Of a stretch of 8,471 nucleotides of DNA, positions 1 to 8,471 are shown piece after piece. The stretch is from a virus (Duplodnaviria; Heunggongvirae; Uroviricota; Caudoviricetes). Both the position numbers and the translations under genes were made by a program. Location: IMG/VR virus record IMGVR_UViG_2706794694_000001; one strand, written 5' to 3'. Under the pieces are notes generated by a model. The model did no database searches and was not told the origin of the DNA. It worked only from the letters and a program-made list of their open reading frames with translations. Each line of letters begins with the position of its first letter. The stretch's first letter is position 1.

Positions 1-83
1 AGGGACAGCTGATAGAAACAGAAGCCACTGGAGCACCTCAAAAACACCATCATACACTAAATCAGTAAGTTGGCAGCATCACC
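1..83 (-). mobile_element. IS1 terminal fragment (left end of the element, inverted; continues beyond the window start)
   Basis: Positions 1-83 are the reverse complement of the first 83 nt of IS1 as I recall it; 61-83 (ATCAGTAAGTTGGCAGCATCACC) is the reverse complement of the 23-bp terminal inverted repeat. The insA 5' end (GTG start, V/M-A-S-V-S-I-S-C-P) reads on the minus strand from 28 towards 1. Match is from memory, not a search. Confidence 0.88.
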
Positions 84-98
84 TCATTCGTCTGTTCC

Positions 99-605
99 TT
101 AAATCTTCCAGGAAATTTCTGCATTGCCGTCAGCATCACCGGCACCTGTGAATTCAGCGTTGGTCAGCACCACGTTTTTGCCACTGACTGACGTGGACAT
201 GAATCCACCCAGCGGCACTTTGATGGATTCATCAGTGGAGACGACAACGTATACCGGATCGCCTTTTTTGATAGTGCTGGCATCAAAATCAGAACCGAGA
301 TTAACGGTCACGTAGCCACGCTTCATGGCGTCGCCCGGGAAGTTCTTGCCTGTTCCCACCTGGCGAACCATGTCCGGCTGCGACGTGGTCGGATAAGGGC
401 GCACGTAGATCCCCTTCACCTTGTCTGCGGTATCACCATCTGCCAGCGGCACGAAAAAACCGTCATCATCGTATTTACCAGCCAGGCCATAGGCAGCGAA
501 GGCGTTATCGGATTTAAGGACCACCGGTTCGACGGTTAAGTCCTGCGGGCGAGAGACAGCCCCGGCAATGCCAACAGGCATCCGGTACAGAAATACATTA
601 TTCAT
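99..605 (-). CDS. phage head structural protein, 168 aa; possibly head decoration or capsid-associated, function not assignable from sequence alone
   Basis: Uninterrupted ORF in the same orientation as the head genes, 3 nt after the upstream gene. AAGGG Shine-Dalgarno about 7 nt before the ATG; TAA stop at 99-101. Its place after the protease/scaffold gene matches the lambda-type order (decoration before major capsid). No confident family match. Confidence 0.8.
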   Translation of the reverse strand: MNNVFLYRMPVGIAGAVSRPQDLTVEPVVLKSDNAFAAYGLAGKYDDDGFFVPLADGDTADKVKGIYVRPYPTTSQPDMVRQVGTGKNFPGDAMKRGYVTVNLGSDFDASTIKKGDPVYVVVSTDESIKVPLGGFMSTSVSGKNVVLTNAEFTGAGDADGNAEISWKI

Positions 606-608
606 TTT

Positions 609-1829
609 TTACCCTTTACGGTTTGCCCAGAATTCAGCGTTTTGTTTGTTCAGGGAAGCGATACTGGTCATGCCCATGTTTAGGCGCTGTGCATCGCCGG
701 TGGTGGCGCGGGTGTTTCGCCCTTTGGCAACCTCAGACACGGCATTAAACGCCATGTCGACCGATTGTTTCGGTAATTTGCGGATATCCGCATCACCGAC
801 TATCTGGCGAACCAGCGTTTTGTCAGCAGAAGCCAGAACCTCGCGTTTGAACGCGGTCGGTTTCATCTTACGGCTCAGATCGATACCCGGAACGATAACT
901 TCGGCACGCCAGGCTGAGTCACCAGTAATCGTGGTTTCCTCTTCATCGTCCTCGCCGTCACCGGTCGGATTATCGTCAGGCTTATTATCGTTATCGCCCG
1001 TGGCATTTCTTTCCAGCTTAGCCAGCAGGGCTTTCAGTAATGTTTTGAGGTCATCATCACTGTCGCCGGTTGGATCTCCGCCCATCTCTGGTGCTTTGTC
1101 CGGTAGTGGTTGCTGCGGGGACAGGTTGATGTTGAGATTAACGCCCTGCGGCAAATCCCCCTCATCTCCTGTAACCGATGCGGGAGCCGACTCCACCAGT
1201 TCGTTCATGGTGTCGGCATCTCCTGTCTTGATGGCCGCACGCATGCGGTTCCACCAGTTTTTCTTTTGATTTGCCATTGTGTCTCTGTCTCCAATTGCAC
1301 AACGATTTCCGGCTCTGCCTTTAGGGACAAGAGCCACATGGTTTCCGGTAATATCGACCTGCTCGGCTTTACCTGGCTCGGTCTGCTCGTACTCCGCGTC
1401 ATAGCCGCACGACACTTCGCGCAGGCCATCTTCGATAAGCTGAATGGCGCTTTCGTCTTTGACGATAAGGTCAGCCAGCATCAAATCAGACTGCTCACCC
1501 GTCCCGCGCCGGACATTCTGGAGGTGCCCGACAGCAAGCTCTTTCCAGTTCTCGGGATTTACCAGCCGCACATTCCCGTTTTCATCTTCAGGATGCAGGA
1601 TCGTGATGCTCATCCCTTCGAATGAGGCAAGCGTGGCCGGATGGAATACCTGCTCAGGAGAACGCGTGACGACTATTTCACCGAACTTATCGGGTTTCAG
1701 TTTTGGCAGGTCATCAGCACCATAGAGCTGCTTACCTGTTCGTCCTATCGGCACGTCTTTGCACAGCAACGAGCCGTCAGCCAGGCGGTATCGGGTTTCC
1801 CCGAGCCTGGTCTCAAAAAAGTATTTCAT
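609..1829 (-). CDS. prohead protease/scaffold-like protein, 406 aa (protease-like N-terminal domain, acidic low-complexity linker, scaffold-like C-terminal part; Mu I/Z-like or lambda C/Nu3-like arrangement)
   Basis: Long ORF immediately after the head morphogenesis gene. N-terminal ~185 aa is globular; the central region is very D/E/G/P/T-rich; the C-terminus is helical and charged. An internal in-frame ATG at 1277-1275 (M185) is preceded by GGAGA at about 9 nt spacing. Domain assignment is from recall. Confidence 0.8.
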   Translation of the reverse strand: MKYFFETRLGETRYRLADGSLLCKDVPIGRTGKQLYGADDLPKLKPDKFGEIVVTRSPEQVFHPATLASFEGMSITILHPEDENGNVRLVNPENWKELAVGHLQNVRRGTGEQSDLMLADLIVKDESAIQLIEDGLREVSCGYDAEYEQTEPGKAEQVDITGNHVALVPKGRAGNRCAIGDRDTMANQKKNWWNRMRAAIKTGDADTMNELVESAPASVTGDEGDLPQGVNLNINLSPQQPLPDKAPEMGGDPTGDSDDDLKTLLKALLAKLERNATGDNDNKPDDNPTGDGEDDEEETTITGDSAWRAEVIVPGIDLSRKMKPTAFKREVLASADKTLVRQIVGDADIRKLPKQSVDMAFNAVSEVAKGRNTRATTGDAQRLNMGMTSIASLNKQNAEFWANRKG

Positions 1830-1832
1830 GGG

Positions 1833-2615
1833 TTATGCTGCCCTTTTCATTGCGAATGGAACGCGAACAAACACGATCTCTTTATAGCAGCGGCAGTTTG
1901 GCAGCTCGCCCGCGTGGCCGGTCATGCCGTCCAAAGTTGGAGGTGAATCCCAGCGGACGAATTTACCTTTCATGTGATCGTGGGAATCTCGGACATCGCC
2001 ATCATCGGCTGTACGCCAAATATAACCATCCGAGCCAATAGCTATCGCTCGGGCCATATCCAGCGCGCCCGTTGCTCTTCCCAGTTCCGTTCGGGCAATC
2101 AGATCGGCCCTAGACTTAGCAACATCGCCGGTAGATGCAATCTCTTTAGCAAACTGCTCCGCCCGACCACCGGTGACAACAGCCTCTATCGCTTTGTTCT
2201 GGATGTCGTACACCCTGTCTGCGGCCTCGAGAGGCAGAGATTTGATGTACTTGACCTGTTCGGCGATGATGGATTGCATCACCTGGCCCACAGGAGCGCT
2301 TTCCACAAGATTGCGGAGCTCGCGACTGATGTTCTTGCTGTGTTGCCGCCAAACTTTCTCGTTCTGCCGGGTTAGGTCCGCAGTAAAGTTTTCCGCGACC
2401 TTTGTCGCCCAGGGGGTGATGATTTCACTGTAACGCTCCAGCGCCGCAATAATTTCCGTGATACTGTCATTTGAACCATCGTAGCGACCATTTACGATGT
2501 CTCCGACCGCCCTCGCTATCCTGCGTAGGCTGGTTCGATACCGGATTTCCGCCTGACGGCTCCTGCGGTTCGTCATCAGGTTCGCCGATGCCGGGCGGCG
2601 CTTCATCTTCGGCAT
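1833..2615 (-). CDS. phage head morphogenesis protein, Mu F-like / SPP1 gp7 family (minor head protein)
   Basis: 260-aa ORF whose C-terminus carries the PNCRC-type motif of this family (…HAGELPNCRCYKEIVFV). GAGGA lies about 10 nt before the ATG at 2615. The start overlaps the portal 3' end by 149 nt, so the true start is uncertain. TAA stop. Confidence 0.8.
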   Translation of the reverse strand: MPKMKRRPASANLMTNRRSRQAEIRYRTSLRRIARAVGDIVNGRYDGSNDSITEIIAALERYSEIITPWATKVAENFTADLTRQNEKVWRQHSKNISRELRNLVESAPVGQVMQSIIAEQVKYIKSLPLEAADRVYDIQNKAIEAVVTGGRAEQFAKEIASTGDVAKSRADLIARTELGRATGALDMARAIAIGSDGYIWRTADDGDVRDSHDHMKGKFVRWDSPPTLDGMTGHAGELPNCRCYKEIVFVRVPFAMKRAA

Positions 2616-3549
2616 TCTCGATGTCCTCGTCGGTAATGGATGCCCCGATGCCGGTTACGTCAGAATTTTCTCGCAAATCAGTCATAGCGGCTTTCAGTGT
2701 CATCAGACCATCACCCAGCGCCGTACTGATTGCGTTGGTGGTGTTTAACGCCACCGTTGAGCGATCGACATCAGACATTTGCCAGAGCGGGTTAAACTCA
2801 AACGTGAAATCGTCCGGCAGCGGCTTGCCAAGTTCCGAACGATGCATGATGTCCAGTATCCGCCGCACCGGAAGACGTAAACGCCTCTCCTGCAACGAAC
2901 TGATGCGATCGTAATAGTTGGCAAGGTCTGCATCACCGGTAGAAAATCCTTTCGGGGACTGTCCGAACAACCGCACCAGTGGGATACCAACAGCGCCACT
3001 AATCTGTTCTACAAACTGCGAAAGGATGTCATCCAGACCACTGAAGCTGTACTGATGGGTTTCAAACTTATCCCGCGAGTCCATGAGCGTCATGCCTTCA
3101 TTACTCTGGAACTGTCGAATCAGGTCGATATTCTTCAGCAACGCTTCATACGCAGGACCACCAAGTGCGATAAGCTCGCGTAGCTTCTCCACGCTGTAGG
3201 TACGCAAATGCGCCTTGTAGACCAGCTGCGCCGCGCCGACAGTAGCGCTGTCGAACGCGGTAAGACGATCCCAGATACGCTCTACAACCGACATTCCCCA
3301 TTCGTTCTCGGTCATCTTCTGCTGAAATGGCAACGTGACGCCATCAAAGCGAATCAGGCGACTGTGATGAATGCGCCAGGCAGGAATTCCCGTTGCTGTG
3401 GTCACCACATCGTAAAACTCAGGTTTACCCAGGTCCGGCCCCATATCTTTAATGCGGCGGGTCAGTGCCGGGTCGACCATCCAGCGGTCGAGCGGGAGAA
3501 TCCCCTTAAACTTGCCCTTACCGATGGTTTCGGGTCGCAGCGGGGTCAT
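2467..3549 (-). CDS. phage portal protein, largest uninterrupted ORF (C-terminal 360 codons of the portal reading frame)
   Basis: ORF sits right after terL in a terS-terL-portal-morphogenesis order, has an acidic C-terminal tail typical of portals, and ends in TGA. The same frame continues upstream to 3933 but carries two TAG codons (see the pseudogene feature). Confidence 0.75.
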   Translation of the reverse strand: MTPLRPETIGKGKFKGILPLDRWMVDPALTRRIKDMGPDLGKPEFYDVVTTATGIPAWRIHHSRLIRFDGVTLPFQQKMTENEWGMSVVERIWDRLTAFDSATVGAAQLVYKAHLRTYSVEKLRELIALGGPAYEALLKNIDLIRQFQSNEGMTLMDSRDKFETHQYSFSGLDDILSQFVEQISGAVGIPLVRLFGQSPKGFSTGDADLANYYDRISSLQERRLRLPVRRILDIMHRSELGKPLPDDFTFEFNPLWQMSDVDRSTVALNTTNAISTALGDGLMTLKAAMTDLRENSDVTGIGASITDEDIENAEDEAPPGIGEPDDEPQEPSGGNPVSNQPTQDSEGGRRHRKWSLRWFK

Positions 3550-3933
3550 TGGTGCCTACCCCTCAATCATGATGAAACCCACCGCGCCGCCGTAGAGGCG
3601 CGACCATTTCAGCACGTCATTCAGCGCATCCCAGATTTGCAACTCATCCAGTTGTGATTCGAGAATGCCACGATCTTTTGCATCAATTTCCGAAGTGATG
3701 CGAATGCCTTTGCGGGTCATATCATCCGGGATAGCATCGACTGCTTCGCCGATGATCTAGGATGAACGATAGGACCATTCCACCAGCATGCGGTTACGAC
3801 TGGTGAAATTAGCCCGGTAGGTGGATGCTGAGTGCTGGTTAGGTGTCTGCATCCCTACGCGGGCAATAAAATTCTCATAACCATCAGCTGTGGCCTGCAC
3901 AGTTCGCCGCAGGGCTTGTTTGTTTCGTGCCAT
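2467..3933 (-). pseudogene. full-length portal reading frame (~489 codons) interrupted by two in-frame amber (TAG) codons
   Basis: An ATG at 3933-3931 overlaps the terL stop as ATGA. 3933-3549 = 384 = 128x3, so it is in frame with the 360-aa ORF. Translation MARNKQALRRTVQATADGYENFIARVGMQTPNQHSASTYRANFTSRNRMLVEWSYRSS*IIGEAVDAIPDDMTRKGIRITSEIDAKDRGILESQLDELQIWDALNDVLKWSRLYGGAVGFIMIEG*APMTPL…; the stops are plus-strand CTA at 3757-3759 and 3556-3558. No frameshifts. Confidence 0.7.
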
Positions 3934-5336
3934 CAGGCCTGTCTCCCCAGCTGTTCCCAGATATCCAGCGATGTATCGATTGGCGCGAAGGCCATAATGA
4001 ATGCATCAGCAACGTTTGGTGACGGTATCTCGCGTTTTGCGAGGTCTTTTTTACTTTCGACCATCACACGTCCGTTACGGTCGAAATCACGATGAGGTGT
4101 TGTCAGTTCCAGTTTCAGCTTTTCAAGCAACGGACAACGAGAATCTATGCTGATCAGCTCATCCACAGGATACTGTTCTCCGTTGTTAATGGCGTTAAAC
4201 GTATTTCTGAAACGGTCAGCCACCAGCCACCATGCCTGAGCCTTAAGATTTGCGAAAAAGTCTTTGTTGGGGATGCCGTTGTACTCGTCATCTGGCTCAT
4301 GCACACCAGCACCGGCGTTAAACCTCTGGTAATTCACACGTCGCGCGTATGCGTTCTCGCTCTTCCGGTCAGCGTTAATTTCAGAGAATTTAGCACCGGC
4401 AGACGCACCAACACCGATAGAGTCGTAAACAATATCTGCTTCACGCTCCAGCGCCGCCTGATAAGTACGCTGGCAGCTCTTCAGTAATTCATCTTCTTTG
4501 GCCTTCCATTCGTCGGCCCAGAAAACAACGGATCCGTGACGGTAAACGTTAGCGCACTTATCTGTACCACTGTCAGCCACGTCAAAGCCAATACGCTTTC
4601 TTCCACTGGGTTCGAAATTTAACGTTTTGTGCGCATCCACTGCGGCTTCTATCCAAGACAGTTTGATGATTGCCGCATCATCATCAGACTCCGGAACGCC
4701 CTCATACACATGTTTAAAACCATCCGGATCACGGCGTCGCGCCGCGTCGATAACCTTAAGCATGGTGTCAGACAGAAACGGATTTTCGTCATAGTTAATT
4801 TTGCGGATGAGAGTGCCTTCGGGCGGATCAACAACGAAGTTGCGCCAGACGAAATCAGTAACAAGTCCGGGGTTGAATATGAACCAGCATTCCGAACCCT
4901 CTTTACGGATCGTTGGCTCCAGAATTTTCCACTGGTATTCCGTCAGTGCGTGGGCTTCTTCCAGCCACAACACATCGATCCCCTCCAGTGACTTAATTTC
5001 TTCGATGTTGCGCCATAATCCATAAAAAACAAATTCCGAGCCAGTAACCCGGTTAATGATTTTGTTGTTCAGAATACGGAAACGGTGCCGCAGACCAAAC
5101 CTGTCTATCTGAATTTTGAGCAGGGTATACACCGACTCTTCGATTTTATTCTGGATCTGACGGGCACAACAAAAACGCAGGGTGTATTTATTCGACAGAA
5201 ATATGGCAATGCCAGCGGCATCCCATGATTTTGACGATGACCGACCACCATAAAGCACTTTGTTACGTGCCCGCATAGTCCAGAAACTACGTAAAGCCGG
5301 ATTCAGCGTCGGTTTGGATGTCAGAGTAGAAGTCAT
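3933..5336 (-). CDS. terL: terminase large subunit (PBSX / Terminase_3-type ATPase-nuclease)
   Basis: N-terminal motif TLNPALRSFW…ARNKVLYGGRSSSKSW (Walker A) and a WLEEAH-type Walker B region. TGA stop at 3933-3935 overlaps the portal ATG. Start is ambiguous: the ORF is open to 5444 but the upstream part reads as out-of-frame terS sequence; ATG at 5336 chosen (alternatives 5354 and 5363). Confidence 0.85.
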   Translation of the reverse strand: MTSTLTSKPTLNPALRSFWTMRARNKVLYGGRSSSKSWDAAGIAIFLSNKYTLRFCCARQIQNKIEESVYTLLKIQIDRFGLRHRFRILNNKIINRVTGSEFVFYGLWRNIEEIKSLEGIDVLWLEEAHALTEYQWKILEPTIRKEGSECWFIFNPGLVTDFVWRNFVVDPPEGTLIRKINYDENPFLSDTMLKVIDAARRRDPDGFKHVYEGVPESDDDAAIIKLSWIEAAVDAHKTLNFEPSGRKRIGFDVADSGTDKCANVYRHGSVVFWADEWKAKEDELLKSCQRTYQAALEREADIVYDSIGVGASAGAKFSEINADRKSENAYARRVNYQRFNAGAGVHEPDDEYNGIPNKDFFANLKAQAWWLVADRFRNTFNAINNGEQYPVDELISIDSRCPLLEKLKLELTTPHRDFDRNGRVMVESKKDLAKREIPSPNVADAFIMAFAPIDTSLDIWEQLGRQA

Positions 5337-6051
5337 TGAGGTCACGCTCTCCATTGCCATCATCAATACCTGCATCACGGCGAAGACGATCAGCCTCCAG
5401 AGACACCTTATCAGTGGCGGCCTTGCGGTAGGCTGTATCAGCAAATATTTTTCCTACCGTCGCAAGCGTGCCAACGATGGACTCAATACGAACTGTATTG
5501 CGCATCATTGCTTTCTCGGCGGCGCTGATATTTTCAATCAGCATCTTCCTTTCCTGGTCCCCATTAGCATCTTCCAGCGACACCAACCACCGACCAATAT
5601 TCTCTGCAGCGACAAGGTTGTTAGCACGAAGGCGAAATAATTCGTCCTCGAGCGTCAACGCTTTAGCGTCCTCTATCACCTCATCTTTGAGCAGAAGGCG
5701 ACGGGCATAACCACCGTGTTTTAATGCCTGCTGGTTACCGGGTTGGAATGGGTTAGTCGGGGGATCGGTACGCATTCCGCGTATCGGTTTCGTATCCGGT
5801 GTAGATTCTGTTTTTAGTTGCGTACTTTTTTGTGTAAGGCCAGTAATGGCAGGCTTTCTGCTGGTACGCACTTTCCTTTTTTGCGTACCATTTTTGCAAA
5901 CCTGCGTACCGCCACTGCGTGCCCAACCAAGCTTTTTGGCCCTCTTCCTGATAGCCCCTTCTGTAACGCCGTATTTCTCGCCTATATCACGGAGGCTAAG
6001 GACTCCGGCCCGGTATGCCGATTCGATGGCCTCCCAGTCCGGTTTTGCCAT
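5287..6051 (-). CDS. terS: terminase small subunit (N-terminal helix-turn-helix DNA-binding domain)
   Basis: 254-aa ORF directly upstream of terL. N-terminus MAKPDWEAIESAYRAGVLSLRDIGEKYGVTEGAIRKRAKKLGW is a typical terminase-small-subunit HTH. AGGAAG Shine-Dalgarno 7 nt before the ATG at 6051; TAG stop at 5287-5289. Confidence 0.8.
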   Translation of the reverse strand: MAKPDWEAIESAYRAGVLSLRDIGEKYGVTEGAIRKRAKKLGWARSGGTQVCKNGTQKRKVRTSRKPAITGLTQKSTQLKTESTPDTKPIRGMRTDPPTNPFQPGNQQALKHGGYARRLLLKDEVIEDAKALTLEDELFRLRANNLVAAENIGRWLVSLEDANGDQERKMLIENISAAEKAMMRNTVRIESIVGTLATVGKIFADTAYRKAATDKVSLEADRLRRDAGIDDGNGERDLNDFYSDIQTDAESGFT

Positions 6052-6195: not shown

Positions 6196-6248
6196 AAGTC
6201 GTATCACGGTTAAATAGCAAAGAAAAATTCACAGAAGGAAAGACATTG

Positions 6249-6758
6249 ATGGAGTGGATAAATGCTTTGATGAACTATTTTGTACTTCATCCATATCGCC
6301 TATGGGGGCTTCTTTTTATAATAGCGTTCACAAAATCCACTTTACTCATTTCGGCGATATTGCCACCAGCATCAATTATGATGGCCACTGTAATTACAGT
6401 CAGCAAGACGACTCTTTCACCATGGGAAGCTGGAATCACGGTCATGAGTGGCGCATGGTGCGGTACTATCGTTAATTACCATCTTGGTATAATAATTGGG
6501 CATATCCCTCAACTTGCATGTATAATATCAAGCCGTTCCAATACAATAGAACGGGTTCGCCTTCAGTTGCAAAATAACTCTGTGTCAATACTTTTCACTT
6601 CGCGCTTTATCGCCGTGCTGCGTTATATTGCTCCTTTGGTGGCAGGAATGTTGCAACTTCATCCAGTGAAAGTGTATACAGTGAGTCTGATTTCAGCTGC
6701 TAGCTGGTCAGCACTTTATGTTGGTAGTTTTAGCTTCGTGTTGCCTTTTTTTAGCTAA
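6249..6758 (+). CDS. YqaA-like DedA-superfamily inner membrane protein (likely prophage moron)
   Basis: Only plus-strand gene. ATG at 6249 is preceded by AGGAAAG; an in-frame TTG lies at 6246. Multi-pass hydrophobic protein with DedA/YqaA-type motifs (…LPPASIMMA…SPWEAG…GAWCGTIVNYHLG…SRFIAVLRYIAPLVAG…). Visibly lower GC than the flanking phage genes. TAA stop. Confidence 0.7.
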   Translation: MEWINALMNYFVLHPYRLWGLLFIIAFTKSTLLISAILPPASIMMATVITVSKTTLSPWEAGITVMSGAWCGTIVNYHLGIIIGHIPQLACIISSRSNTIERVRLQLQNNSVSILFTSRFIAVLRYIAPLVAGMLQLHPVKVYTVSLISAASWSALYVGSFSFVLPFFS

Positions 6759-6846: not shown

Positions 6847-7317
6847 CTACCCCCCAAGGCATTGGATCCTGATGTACTCCTGAAGCATTCTCAATGCTGT
6901 CTGGTCGCTGATGATTCCGTCCCGGATACCGAGAACGTTTCGTCCAGCAACTGGAGAGAGTTCGACGGTGGCATCATTGCCCATGCCGGAGGCGCTGGAG
7001 GTTTCGGCTGAGGATGGCACAGGGCATTTTCCTTTGACGAGCACCCGACCACCATTATCAAGCTTGCGCCGAAGAGCATCATTTTCAGCTTTCGCATCAG
7101 CTAACTCCTTCGTGTATTTTGCATCGAGCGCAGCAACATCACGCTGACGCATCTGCATGTCAGTAATGGTTGCGTTCGCCAGCTTCAGTTCTCTTGCGTT
7201 TTTGTCGCGCTGCTCTTTGTAGGTAATGGCGTTATCACGGTAATGATTAACAGCCCATGACAGGCGGACGATGATGCAGATAACCAGAGCGGAGATAATC
7301 GCGGTGACTCTGCTCAT
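6847..7317 (-). CDS. Rz: Rz-family i-spanin (inner-membrane spanin subunit), copy 1, non-lambda C-terminal allele
   Basis: [17 protein letters not shown]…[13 protein letters not shown]…[27 protein letters not shown] is near-identical to lambda Rz in the N-terminal half, with a divergent but homologous C-terminal half. Start taken as ATG 7317-7315, preceded by a 42-nt copy of the endolysin 3' end in ATGA arrangement (the ORF is open from GTG 7329). TAG stop. Confidence 0.85.
6891..7097 (-). CDS. Rz1: Rz1-family o-spanin lipoprotein, copy 1, embedded in Rz in another frame
   Basis: 68-aa ORF nested inside Rz copy 1 in the +1 frame: [19 protein letters not shown] (signal peptide with lipobox VVGC) followed by proline-rich [11 protein letters not shown], the hallmark of embedded Rz1. 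Confidence 0.7.
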
Positions 7318-7369
7318 TGCTGCCCCCACAAACAGACTTCACGCTCAATCTCACGACGGGTCATCAGCC
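7081..7369. repeat. direct repeat copy A of the Rz N-terminal region plus endolysin 3' end (289 bp); the partner is 7530-7921
   Basis: 7081-7146 is identical to 7530-7595 (offset 449) and 7267-7369 is identical to 7819-7921 (offset 552). Identity breaks at 7080/7529 and 7370/7922. Confidence 0.9.
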
Positions 7370-7869
7370 GCTCTCTGAGGGTGAAATAATCCCGTTCAGC
7401 GGTGTCTGCCAGTCGGGGGCTGGTTGCATTATCCACGCCGGAGGCGGTGGTGGCTTCACGCACTGACTGACAGACTGCTTTGATGTGCAACCGACGACGA
7501 CCAGCGGCAACATCAGCGCGCAGAGTTTCATTTTCAGCTTTCGCATCAGCTAACTCCTTCGTGTATTTTGCATCGAGCGCAGCAACATCACGCTGNNNNN
7601 NNNNNNNNNNNNNNNNNNNNNNNNNNNNNNNNNNNNNNNNNNNNNNNNNNNNNNNNNNNNNNNNNNNNNNNNNNNNNNNNNNNNNNNNNNNNNNNNNNNN
7701 NNNNNNNNNNNNNNNNNNNNNNNNNNNNNNNNNNNNNNNNNNNNNNNNNNNNNNNNNNNNNNNNNNNNNNNNNNNNNNNNNNNNNNNNNNNNNNNNNNNN
7801 NNNNNNNNNNNNNNNNNNGACGATGATGCAGATAACCAGAGCGGAGATAATCGCGGTGACTCTGCTCAT
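7314..7869 (-). CDS. Rz: Rz-family i-spanin, copy 2, lambda-type allele; interrupted by the N-run and C-terminally truncated/fused to a duplicated endolysin 3' fragment (probably non-functional as it stands)
   Basis: ATG at 7869-7867 overlaps the endolysin TGA (ATGA); [17 protein letters not shown] then runs into the N-run. After the gap: …[77 protein letters not shown], then reads into [16 protein letters not shown] (the endolysin C-terminal sequence) instead of the lambda Rz tail. Frame continuity across the gap cannot be verified. Confidence 0.55.
7364..7546 (-). CDS. Rz1: Rz1-family o-spanin lipoprotein, copy 2, lambda-type, intact 60 aa
   Basis: [60 protein letters not shown] is near-identical to lambda Rz1 as recalled: lipobox VVGC, PPPPP stretch, embedded in the Rz copy 2 frame. 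Confidence 0.75.
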   Translation of the reverse strand: MRKLKMKLCALMLPLVVVGCTSKQSVSQCVKPPPPPAWIMQPAPDWQTPLNGIISPSESG

Positions 7870-7921
7870 TGCTGCCCCCACAAACAGACTTCACGCTCAA
7901 TCTCACGACGGGTCATCAGCC
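7530..7921. repeat. direct repeat copy B (contains the 223-nt N-run); the partner is 7081-7369
   Basis: See copy A; the flanks on both sides of the N-run match copy A exactly. Confidence 0.9.
7596..7818. other. assembly gap (223 N)
   Basis: Contiguous run of n characters. Its length is not a multiple of 3 and is 103 nt longer than the equivalent interval in repeat copy A, so it is a placeholder of uncertain size. Confidence 0.97.
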
Positions 7922-8363
7922 CTTTCCATTGCTTACCGCCAGCATATGTCCAGCGACATAGCTGGTCACATGCGCCTTTGATATAGCCCTGGTTTATTTT
8001 GCGAAGAAGCGTCGATGTTCTGAAATTGCCAGCGCCCACGTTGTAAACGAACGAGTAAAGAGCGCCGCGCGTTGTTTCCGGTATATCGACTTTGATGTAC
8101 GGGTTAATTTGTCTGGCGACAGTGGCAAGGTCTTTATTCAGGAGAGCTTTGCATTCTGCTTCGGTATACGTTTTACCAGGCATGATGTCTTTTCCGGTGT
8201 GTCCGTGACATACAGTCCATACACCAATGATATCTTTGTATAGTATGTAGCTGACACCTTCCAGACCATCGTTACCACCTGGGCCAGTGATTAACACAGA
8301 TGCTATAGCAACAGCCCCGCCACCAATAGCAACTGCAACAGCCTTGCGTAATGATGGCGACAT
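7866..8363 (-). CDS. R: SAR endolysin (P21 R-like lysozyme with N-terminal signal-arrest-release domain)
   Basis: 165-aa ORF near-identical to the recalled P21/DLP12-type lysozyme: G/A-rich weakly hydrophobic N-terminus [23 protein letters not shown] (SAR domain), catalytic E35/D44/T50 spacing of T4-lysozyme-like enzymes, C-terminal …[27 protein letters not shown] Shine-Dalgarno before the ATG at 8363; TGA stop overlaps the Rz start. Confidence 0.92.
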
Positions 8364-8385: not shown

Positions 8386-8471
8386 TAGACTGGCCCCCTG
8401 AATCTCCAGACAACCAGTATCACTTAAATAAGTGATAGTCTTAATACTAGTTTTTAGACTAGTCATTGGAG
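8386..8471 (+). mobile_element. IS2 left end (terminal inverted repeat and leader; continues beyond the window end)
   Basis: 8386-8471 (TAGACTGGCCCCCTGAATCTCCAGACAACCAGTATCACTTAAATAAGTGATAGTCTTAATACTAGTTTTTAGACTAGTCATTGGAG) matches the recalled IS2 left end, with one possible mismatch (CAACCAGTATC here versus CAACCAATATC as recalled). The transposase orfA start would lie just past the window. Match is from memory. Confidence 0.88.

What the first reader, a model, noticed from the sequence alone, without database searches (positions are those of the whole stretch)
3550..3933. Portal gene carries exactly two in-frame amber codons and no frameshifts
The portal reading frame is continuous for about 489 codons from the ATG at 3933, which overlaps the terL stop, to the TGA at 2467. 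It is broken only by two TAG codons, at minus-strand 3759-3757 and 3558-3556. Random decay would normally also leave indels, so this is not typical pseudogene erosion. Explanations are inactivating point mutations (each TAG is one transition from TGG or CAG), amber alleles kept in a suppressor background, or sequencing error. Either way the prophage cannot build a portal without suppression, while terS, terL, the morphogenesis protein and the protease/scaffold gene are intact. TAG is also used as a normal stop by terS and Rz copy 1, so there is no wholesale recoding.
Basis: seen in the sequence. Interest (0 to 1): 0.55.

Follow-up and report, generated by a model that had tools for sequence, protein, structure and literature searches.

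The report
Dead portal gene in Shigella prophage remnant
The two in-frame amber codons are real, but they are ordinary knockout point mutations in the portal gene of a decaying, IS-truncated prophage remnant that is fixed in Shigella sonnei, not a sign of suppression, recoding or sequencing error.

Summary
The minus-strand frame 3933->2467 is 488 codons plus a stop, with in-frame TAGs at 3759-3757 (codon 59) and 3558-3556 (codon 126) and no frameshift.

The closest intact homologues are 488-aa PF06381 (DUF1073) portals of E. coli prophages. They differ from the window by only three bases in this gene: W59 TGG->TAG, Q126 CAG->TAG and A308V. All three are G:C->A:T transitions. The W59 change falls on the methylated-cytosine position of a Dcm site (CCTGG), a known amber hotspot.

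The window is the Shigella sonnei version of this prophage. The three resulting ORF fragments occur as exact products in about 2,600-2,750 blocks of public assemblies, including 53G and Ss046, so sequencing error is excluded. No single-amber intermediate and no E. coli carrier was found.

The element is a remnant. IS2 cuts the holin, and IS1 replaces everything from the major capsid gene onward. Divergence from intact relatives is about 0.1%, so the lack of indels is expected.

A suppressor background is unsupported. Neighbouring genes use TAG as their stop, no CUA tRNA lies in the 12-21 kb S. sonnei loci scanned, and no single suppressor restores both residues. The whole genome could not be scanned. 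This is ordinary pseudogene decay and of low interest.

The parts
2467..3933 (-). Portal pseudogene (PF06381 Phage_portal_3 / DUF1073): 488 codons plus TGA, interrupted by two TAG codons
   Evidence: Translation. The restored protein hits PF06381 at E 3e-106 over residues 55-402. It matches solved portals Pam3 8hds at E 2e-37 and E217 gp19 8fvh at 1e-14. It is 99.8% identical in DNA to the intact E. coli gene WP_000113499.1.
3757..3759 (-). Amber 1: W59 TGG->TAG, a G->A change at window 3758 on the 5-methylcytosine position of a Dcm site (CCTGG)
   Evidence: W59 is conserved in the Pam3 portal (YRNSW) and in E217/Pa193 gp19 (HW).
3556..3558 (-). Amber 2: Q126 CAG->TAG, a C->T change at window 3558, not at a Dcm site
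   Evidence: Q is conserved in the Pam3 portal but variable in more distant portals.
3011..3011 (-). Third lineage-specific change in the gene: A308V (GCA->GTA)
   Evidence: All outgroups, including Salmonella phage SEN34, have Ala.
2467..3549 (-). Residual 360-aa ORF (M129 to the end), annotated in S. sonnei as 'putative bacteriophage protein' (Q3Z426_SHISS). GAGGGG lies 9 nt upstream of its ATG.
3556..3720 (-). Residual 54-aa ORF between the two ambers (M72-G125)
3757..3933 (-). Residual 58-aa N-terminal ORF ending at amber 1
3933..5336 (-). terL (PBSX-family/Terminase_3 large terminase, 467 aa as annotated in relatives), intact. Its TGA overlaps the portal ATG by one base.
5287..6051 (-). 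254-aa gene in the terS position, intact, stop codon TAG
1833..2576 (-). Mu F-like head morphogenesis gene (247 aa as annotated). It overlaps the portal 3' end by about 110 nt.
609..1829 (-). DUF2213 (Pa193 gp24-like protease/scaffold) gene, intact, carrying one lineage-specific S403N change
99..605 (-). Cement/decoration protein gene (PF22758/PF23982). It is the last phage gene before the IS1.
1..83 (.). IS1 end. Homology to intact prophages stops 4 bases into the major capsid (DUF2184) gene.
   Evidence: 100% match to the second IS1 copy in S. sonnei loci; homology to L001 ends at position 9850, and the capsid CDS starts at 9847. IS1 InsA/InsB genes and then chromosomal pgl/ybhD follow.
8386..8471 (.). 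IS2 end, inserted about 23 nt before the end of the holin gene
   Evidence: 100% to the IS2 end in L002; IS3-family transposase genes directly upstream in S. sonnei genomes.

Best explanation
The portal gene of a lambdoid-regulated, Pam3/E217-type-head myovirus prophage was inactivated by two independent G:C->A:T transitions (W59 TGG->TAG and Q126 CAG->TAG) in the ancestor of Shigella sonnei. Both became fixed by clonal descent. The first arose by deamination of a Dcm-methylated cytosine (CCTGG -> CCTAG), a classic amber hotspot. The second is an ordinary C->T change. After the first stop, or after the IS events that removed the capsid and tail genes and cut the holin, the gene was selectively neutral, so a second stop and a missense change (A308V) could accumulate. 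Translation ends after 58 residues. At best, short fragments (54 aa and 360 aa) could be made by re-initiation. No fragment contains the whole PF06381 domain, so no dodecameric portal can form. Shown here: the ancestral codons, the derived state, fixation in the sampled S. sonnei assemblies, the IS truncations and the Dcm context. Inferred: the order of events, neutrality, the deamination mechanism and the absence of any product.
For: The ORF structure is.

Ancestral state: only 3 substitutions separate the window from the intact 488-aa portals of E. coli FDAARGOS_944/943 and VL40. The ancestral states TGG, CAG and GCA are shared by E. coli A34, phage vB_EcoM-606R2 and Salmonella phage SEN34.

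Distribution: the exact 360-, 54- and 58-aa products are listed in 2576, 2758 and 2737 blocks of assemblies. These include HE616528.1, which I recognise as S. sonnei 53G. The source names say S. sonnei, and Q3Z426_SHISS is the Ss046 entry. Of the loci fetched with full-length coverage, 53 have an intact portal and 25 have exactly the two TAGs. None has only one TAG. No E. coli complete genome matches either TAG-bearing 61-mer at 100%.

Identity of the gene: it is a portal by Pfam and by sequence match to solved portals. W59 lies in a motif conserved to Pam3 and E217.

Context: the remnant is bounded by IS2 and IS1, the capsid and tail genes are absent from the locus, and chromosomal genes follow.

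Mutation pattern: 6 of 7 lineage-specific substitutions are G:C->A:T. W59* falls on a Dcm 5mC position.

Background: Shigella genomes are known to degrade through IS, nonsense mutations and indels; 719 CDS are inactivated in at least one S. sonnei genome (PMC7373316).
Against: Two nonsense changes among only 3 substitutions in the gene (P of about 0.007), or 7 in the remnant (P of about 0.044), is more than a flat neutral model predicts. The other four changes outside the portal are 3 synonymous plus 1 missense. The order of the IS events and the point mutations is unknown. Whether the missing capsid and tail module was deleted or moved elsewhere in the genome by IS1-mediated rearrangement was not checked. 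The host genome was not scanned for suppressor tRNAs.
Confidence: 0.88

Rival explanations
1. Adaptive knockout. Loss of the portal, or of the prophage's ability to package and kill, was positively selected in the S. sonnei ancestor. That would explain why nonsense changes are over-represented and concentrated in this one gene.
For: There is a nominal excess of nonsense changes. All three portal changes are non-silent, while 3 of the 4 changes elsewhere are silent. Relatives also carry independent knockouts of packaging and head genes. FDAARGOS_943 has IS2 in terL and an internal stop in Mu F. S. flexneri SFBU1023 has IS2 at a different terL site.
Against: One stop suffices, so selection cannot explain the second. 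If one stop is taken as given, 1 nonsense among the remaining 6 changes has P of about 0.26 (from the 5% rate). One stop is at a mutational hotspot. The numbers are tiny and the feature was picked post hoc. The element has other lethal lesions.
Confidence: 0.08
2. Conditional (amber) alleles maintained in a suppressor host. S. sonnei carries a tRNA that reads UAG, so a full-length portal is made.
For: Both stops are TAG rather than a mix of stop codons. The reading frame is otherwise perfect.
Against: TAG terminates the neighbouring terS-like and Rz genes. No CUA tRNA is found in the window or in the 12-21 kb S. sonnei loci scanned. The prophage tRNA cluster of intact relatives encodes only sense tRNAs. 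By inference, no single suppressor restores both Trp59 and Gln126, and W59 is a conserved residue. The element lacks a capsid gene, tail genes and an intact holin, so a restored portal would serve nothing. Both TGG->TAG and CAG->TAG are simply the G:C->A:T routes to a stop; 28 of the 49 such nonsense routes in this gene give TAG.
Confidence: 0.015
3. Sequencing or assembly error at the two positions.
For: The window is a draft scaffold with a 223-N gap and an assembly-type duplication in the Rz region.
Against: The same two TAGs are present in every S. sonnei-type locus fetched, including finished chromosomes from different projects and four IMG/VR prophage contigs. The fragment ORFs are on record in more than 2,500 blocks.
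Confidence: 0.005
4. Domesticated fragment. The 360-aa C-terminal ORF is re-initiated from its own Shine-Dalgarno-like GAGGGG and kept for a host function, for example poisoning portal assembly of superinfecting relatives.
For: GAGGGG lies 9 nt upstream of the ATG at 3549. The 360-aa ORF is intact in thousands of assemblies. A 360-aa orthologue with the same N-terminus is annotated in S. dysenteriae Sd197.
Against: S. sonnei is a young clone, so conservation carries no information. The S. dysenteriae copy carries 4 derived missense changes in 360 aa, two of them Pro->Leu and two involving Trp (W->R and R->W), which looks like relaxed constraint. The fragment lacks the first ~77 positions of the PF06381 profile, since it matches from profile position 84 where the full-length protein matches from position 7. 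There are no expression data.
Confidence: 0.02

Closest known systems
Nonsense-mutation pseudogenes in degraded (cryptic) prophages of Shigella and E. coli, as catalogued for Shigella by Hawkey et al. 2020 (PMC7373316)
   Same: Intact orthologues exist in relatives. The stops are derived and fixed in a clonal, IS-rich, host-restricted lineage. The same element also carries IS insertions and deletions.
   Different: Nothing essential. The only slightly unusual point is two stops, both amber, within 3 substitutions.
Amber hotspots at Dcm (CCWGG) sites caused by 5-methylcytosine deamination (Coulondre and Miller lacI work, 1978; cited from my own knowledge)
   Same: W59 TGG->TAG is exactly CCTGG->CCTAG, i.e. 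C->T at the methylated inner cytosine of the complementary CCAGG.
   Different: Only one of the two ambers is at such a site. Dcm activity in the S. sonnei ancestor is assumed, not tested.
Laboratory amber (sus) mutants of phage head genes propagated on supE/supF hosts
   Same: In-frame TAG codons in an essential morphogenetic gene whose frame is otherwise perfect.
   Different: This is a natural clinical lineage and no suppressor was found in the sequence available. The element is not a viable phage. The two sites need different amino acids.
PF06381 / DUF1073 portals with solved structures (Pam3 8hds; E217 gp19 8fvh; Pa193 gp19 9b41)
   Same: The restored protein matches them over residues 15-413 and 58-367. 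The gene order terL-portal-MuF-DUF2213-cement-capsid is the same as in intact relatives.
   Different: The reading frame here is broken, so the window encodes no functional member.

Membership tests
PF06381 Phage_portal_3 (DUF1073) portal protein | Match to the family HMM above the gathering score | tested here: met
   The restored 488-aa sequence scores 355 bits against a cutoff of 33.8. The 360-aa and 54-aa fragments also pass.
PF06381 Phage_portal_3 (DUF1073) portal protein | Homology to experimentally solved portal dodecamers | tested here: met
   Pam3 portal 8hds at E 2e-37; E217 gp19 8fvh at 1e-14; Pa193 gp19 9b41 at 9e-15. The comparison is by sequence only; no fold was predicted.
PF06381 Phage_portal_3 (DUF1073) portal protein | Position directly after terL and before the head morphogenesis and scaffold genes | tested here: met
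PF06381 Phage_portal_3 (DUF1073) portal protein | Uninterrupted reading frame encoding the whole domain (a functional member) | tested here: not met
   Two in-frame TAGs at codons 59 and 126, inside or at the edge of the domain (residues 55-402). It is a pseudogene of this family.
Suppressor-dependent amber alleles / UAG reassignment | A tRNA with anticodon CUA in the genome | not testable with these tools
   None in the window or in the 12-21 kb S. sonnei loci scanned. The rest of the S. sonnei chromosome could not be fetched.
Suppressor-dependent amber alleles / UAG reassignment | TAG avoided as a genuine terminator in neighbouring genes | tested here: not met
   The terS-like gene and Rz both end in TAG.
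Suppressor-dependent amber alleles / UAG reassignment | In-frame TAGs recurrent in other genes of the element or in related elements | tested here: not met
   Only the portal is affected. 53 related full-length loci have no internal stop, and none has a single TAG.
Lineage-fixed pseudogene in a decaying prophage | Intact orthologue in close relatives, with the stops being the derived state | tested here: met
Lineage-fixed pseudogene in a decaying prophage | Same lesion in independent genomes of the lineage (not an error) | tested here: met
Lineage-fixed pseudogene in a decaying prophage | Other inactivating lesions in the same element | tested here: met
   IS2 in the holin. IS1 replaces the capsid and tail genes at this locus. 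Further IS elements lie upstream.

The most novel reading that the evidence does not exclude
The double knockout is not neutral decay. One possibility is that the portal was specifically selected against in the Shigella ancestor. Another is that the C-terminal 360-aa fragment, also annotated with the same N-terminus in S. dysenteriae Sd197, is a re-initiated, retained product that interferes with incoming relatives. If S. dysenteriae carries the very same two TAGs, the crippled allele moved between unrelated Shigella lineages or arose in parallel.
Probability: 0.04. Interest if true: 0.5.

Novelty: already known. Interest (0 to 1): 0.08.

Why it matters
It matters little beyond annotation. The three small ORFs at 2467-3933, currently carried in databases as separate 'putative bacteriophage proteins' (one even named 'alpha/beta hydrolase'), should be one portal pseudogene. 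The locus is a tidy example of how a Shigella prophage decays: IS truncation plus G:C->A:T nonsense mutations, one at a Dcm hotspot. For a genome scan, the lesson is that 'stops without indels' is not anomalous when divergence from the intact allele is about 0.1-0.2%.

Tried and rejected
- Sequencing error was rejected on population evidence.
- The alternative start at 3549, with a non-portal upstream region, was rejected. Homologues are full-length from the ATG at 3933, and the 54-aa piece itself hits PF06381.
- Wholesale TAG recoding was rejected.
- A search for single-amber intermediates found none. It covered species-representative genomes (2 loci, both sense/sense), metagenomes (11 loci, all sense/sense), IMG/VR (44 sense/sense and 4 double-amber identical to the window) and E. 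coli complete genomes (no 100% match to either TAG 61-mer).
- I tried to obtain the S. dysenteriae Sd197 DNA to see whether it shares the TAGs. 
- My first genome contigs pattern had the gap one base too long and found nothing.
- A literature search for natural amber suppressors in E. coli isolates returned nothing. A search for S. sonnei prophage nonsense pseudogenes returned nothing specific.
- I did not predict a structure, because the sequence matches to solved portals were already decisive.

Full report
**1. Observation.** On the minus strand, the frame from the ATG at 3933 to the TGA at 2469-2467 is 489 codons long: 488 sense positions plus the stop. It contains exactly two internal stops, both TAG. 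They lie at 3759-3757 (codon 59) and 3558-3556 (codon 126). Mechanical ORF listing splits the frame into pieces of 58 aa (3757-3933), 54 aa (3556-3720) and 360 aa (2467-3549). The ATG at 3933 shares one base with the terL TGA. The terS-like gene and the complete Rz copy both end in TAG.

**2. What the gene is.** With the two stops restored, the protein matches Pfam PF06381 (Phage_portal_3, formerly DUF1073) over residues 55-402 at E = 3e-106. The 54-aa and 360-aa pieces each hit consecutive parts of the same profile. By sequence it matches solved portal dodecamers:
- Pam3 portal 8hds, E = 2e-37
- E217 gp19 8fvh, E = 1e-14
- Pa193 gp19 9b41, E = 9e-15

The neighbouring genes are a terS-position gene, terL (Terminase_3), a Mu F-like head morphogenesis gene, a DUF2213 gene and a cement protein gene. 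This is the order found in intact relatives, where a DUF2184 major capsid gene and tail genes follow. The region 3550-3933 is therefore genuine portal sequence, and 3549 is not the native start.

**3. Ancestral state.** 382 E. coli complete genomes and 7 phage records carry this gene. The closest are FDAARGOS_944, FDAARGOS_943 and VL40. They encode an intact 488-aa protein (WP_000113499.1) and differ from the window by three bases with no gap:
- TGG -> TAG at codon 59
- CAG -> TAG at codon 126
- GCA -> GTA at codon 308

More distant relatives all have TGG, CAG and Ala (GCA, or GCC in SEN34) at these sites, so the window states are derived. These relatives are E. coli A34, the induced phage vB_EcoM-606R2 and Salmonella phage SEN34. 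W59 lies in a motif conserved as far as the Pam3 (YRNSW) and E217 (HW) portals. Q126 is conserved in Pam3 only.

**4. Where the window comes from, and whether the stops are real.**
- The exact 360-aa product is on record in 2,576 blocks of public assemblies, the 54-aa product in 2,758 and the 58-aa product in 2,737.
- The chromosomes returned include HE616528.1, which I recognise as S. sonnei 53G.
- The sources name the proteins as Shigella sonnei; Q3Z426_SHISS is the Ss046 entry.
- All 26 S. sonnei-type loci fetched carry both TAGs. Four IMG/VR prophage contigs are identical to the window across the gene.
- Most carrier contigs are 5-10 kb. That is the distance between the IS2 and IS1 copies flanking this segment, so the 8,471-base window looks like a typical draft S. 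sonnei contig or scaffold.

Sequencing error is excluded.

**5. No intermediates and no other carriers.** A degenerate pattern covering all four allele combinations gave these results:
- Species-representative genomes: 2 loci, both sense/sense (S. flexneri SFBU1023 and E. coli ECMA0423).
- Metagenome contigs: 11, all sense/sense.
- IMG/VR contigs: 48, of which 44 are sense/sense and 4 are double-amber.

Across all loci with full-length coverage, 53 are intact and 25 have exactly the two TAGs. One unrelated contig is frameshifted. Four long-read S. sonnei assemblies show extra indels that look like assembly noise. Neither TAG-bearing 61-mer has a 100% match in 5,426 E. coli complete genomes.

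**6. State of the element.**
- Window 8386-8471 is an IS2 end, inserted about 23 nt before the end of the holin gene.
- Window 1-83 is an IS1 end.
- Homology to intact prophages stops 4 bases into the major capsid gene.
- In complete S. sonnei genomes the IS1 is followed by chromosomal genes: a lactonase, a LysR-family regulator and an aconitase-family gene. Further IS elements occupy the region upstream of the holin.

At this locus there is no capsid gene, no tail module and no intact holin. Relatives decay in other ways. FDAARGOS_943 has IS2 in terL and an internal stop in Mu F. S. flexneri SFBU1023 has IS2 at a different terL position.

**7. Is it more than chance, and why no indels?** Outside the Rz region, which is affected by an assembly gap, the window differs from both closest E. 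coli prophages at only 7 positions in roughly 6.7 kb:
- 3 synonymous changes (DedA, terS, terL)
- S403N in DUF2213
- the three portal changes

Six of the seven are G:C->A:T. The three portal changes are polarised by outgroups. The other four rest only on the three close E. coli relatives, so they could instead have arisen on the E. coli side.

At about 0.1% divergence, the absence of indels carries no information. This is an inference from the usual several-fold excess of substitutions over indels.

Under a G:C->A:T spectrum, 5.0% of coding changes in these genes are nonsense. That gives P(>=2 of 7) = 0.044 and P(>=2 of 3 in the portal) = 0.007. The excess is nominal and post hoc. If one stop was the founding or selected knockout, one more among six changes has P of about 0.26.

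The W59 change falls on the inner, methylated cytosine of a Dcm site (CCTGG -> CCTAG). The gene has only three such sites, and two of their six 5mC positions would create W->amber. This is the classical 5-methylcytosine deamination amber hotspot. That statement rests on my own knowledge of the lacI work; Dcm activity in the ancestor is assumed. Both being TAG is also unremarkable, because 28 of the 49 G:C->A:T nonsense routes in this gene yield TAG.

**8. Suppression.**
- No tRNA is present in the window.
- The only tRNA found in the 21-kb S. sonnei loci is a CAT-anticodon tRNA, present in 2 of the 4 scanned. It is left over from the prophage tRNA cluster, which in intact relatives encodes CAT, TCT, TGT and TCC or TAC anticodons.
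- TAG is used as a terminator next door.
- A Gln-inserting suppressor would restore Q126 but put Gln at the conserved W59. No single suppressor restores both residues (inference).
- A restored portal would have no capsid to nucleate.

I could not scan the remainder of an S. sonnei chromosome, so this rival is excluded by argument rather than by a complete test.

**9. Mechanism, as far as it goes.** Translation from 3933 stops after 58 residues. Re-initiation at M72, or at M129 (GAGGGG lies 9 nt upstream), is conceivable. Each product lacks part of the PF06381 domain. The most likely outcome is no functional portal and no selective consequence, because the element is already a remnant. This fits the documented mode of Shigella genome degradation by IS, nonsense mutations and indels (PMC7373316).

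**10. Loose end.** S. dysenteriae Sd197 and 1617 carry a 360-aa protein (ABB62211.1) with the same N-terminus. It has four derived missense changes of its own and the ancestral Ala308. Its upstream DNA could not be fetched. It is therefore unknown whether S. dysenteriae shares the Q126 amber, acquired it in parallel, or is broken differently.

**11. Verdict.** This is a portal pseudogene made by two transitions in an IS-truncated prophage remnant that is fixed in S. sonnei. It is already represented in public annotation as fragment ORFs. Interest is low.

Noticed in passing
window 7596-7818 and flanks 7266-7595 / 7819-7921: There is a run of 223 N. The 103 bases spanning the lysozyme end and Rz start occur on both sides of it. 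Next to the gap lies a roughly 90%-identical partial Rz segment. Seven clustered mismatches to finished S. sonnei genomes fall at 7120-7152. Finished S. sonnei chromosomes have a single lysozyme-Rz copy here. The low GC in the composition profile for 7501-8000 is caused by the Ns.
   Followed up: partly
window 1-83 and 8386-8471: The window ends in an IS1 end and an IS2 end. About 2,300 of the roughly 2,600 blocks carrying the 360-aa ORF have it on contigs of 5-10 kb. The window is therefore the standard IS-bounded draft contig of this S. sonnei locus.
   Followed up: yes
protein P0003 (S. dysenteriae Sd197 ABB62211.1); no DNA held: S. dysenteriae has a 360-aa orthologue starting at the same Met129. 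It differs from the S. sonnei product at 5 residues (W186R, A308 ancestral, P318L, P459L, R477W). The portal is therefore truncated there as well. Whether the same amber is responsible is unknown.
   Followed up: partly
L002 3262-6001 and 7358-8101 (E. coli FDAARGOS_943); L025 6379-7711 (S. flexneri SFBU1023): The same prophage type decays independently in relatives. IS2 is inserted in terL at two different positions, one of them with a 5-bp overlap that looks like a target duplication. FDAARGOS_943 also has an internal stop in the Mu F gene. The portal is intact in both.
   Followed up: partly
window 6246-6758 (+): A DedA/VTT-domain membrane protein gene lies on the opposite strand between Rz and the terS-position gene. 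It has a moron-like placement and is conserved in the intact E. coli relatives (WP_011069285.1).
   Followed up: no
L001 918-1228, L015 1309-1616, L006 2320-2393: Intact relatives carry a four-tRNA cluster (anticodons CAT, TCT, TGT, and TCC or TAC) downstream of the Q-like gene. S. sonnei 53G keeps only the first tRNA, next to an IS. Other S. sonnei genomes have none in the locus.
   Followed up: partly
window 2467-2576 (-): The Mu F-like gene, as annotated in relatives (247 aa), overlaps the last ~110 nt of the portal gene in another frame. Different annotations choose 152-, 247- or 260-aa starts.
   Followed up: no
database names for pieces of window 2467-3933: The naming is inconsistent. 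The 54-aa fragment is 'Alpha/beta hydrolase' in UniRef. Some homologues are called 'anti-CBASS protein Acb1 family protein' by NCBI, including in E. coli C. Pfam and the solved structures say portal.
   Followed up: partly
L012, L030, L031, L034 (S. sonnei assemblies GCA_0401889xx): These assemblies show extra 1-base indels in the portal region and in neighbouring genes. Other S. sonnei genomes lack them, so they are probably long-read assembly errors rather than further decay.
   Followed up: no
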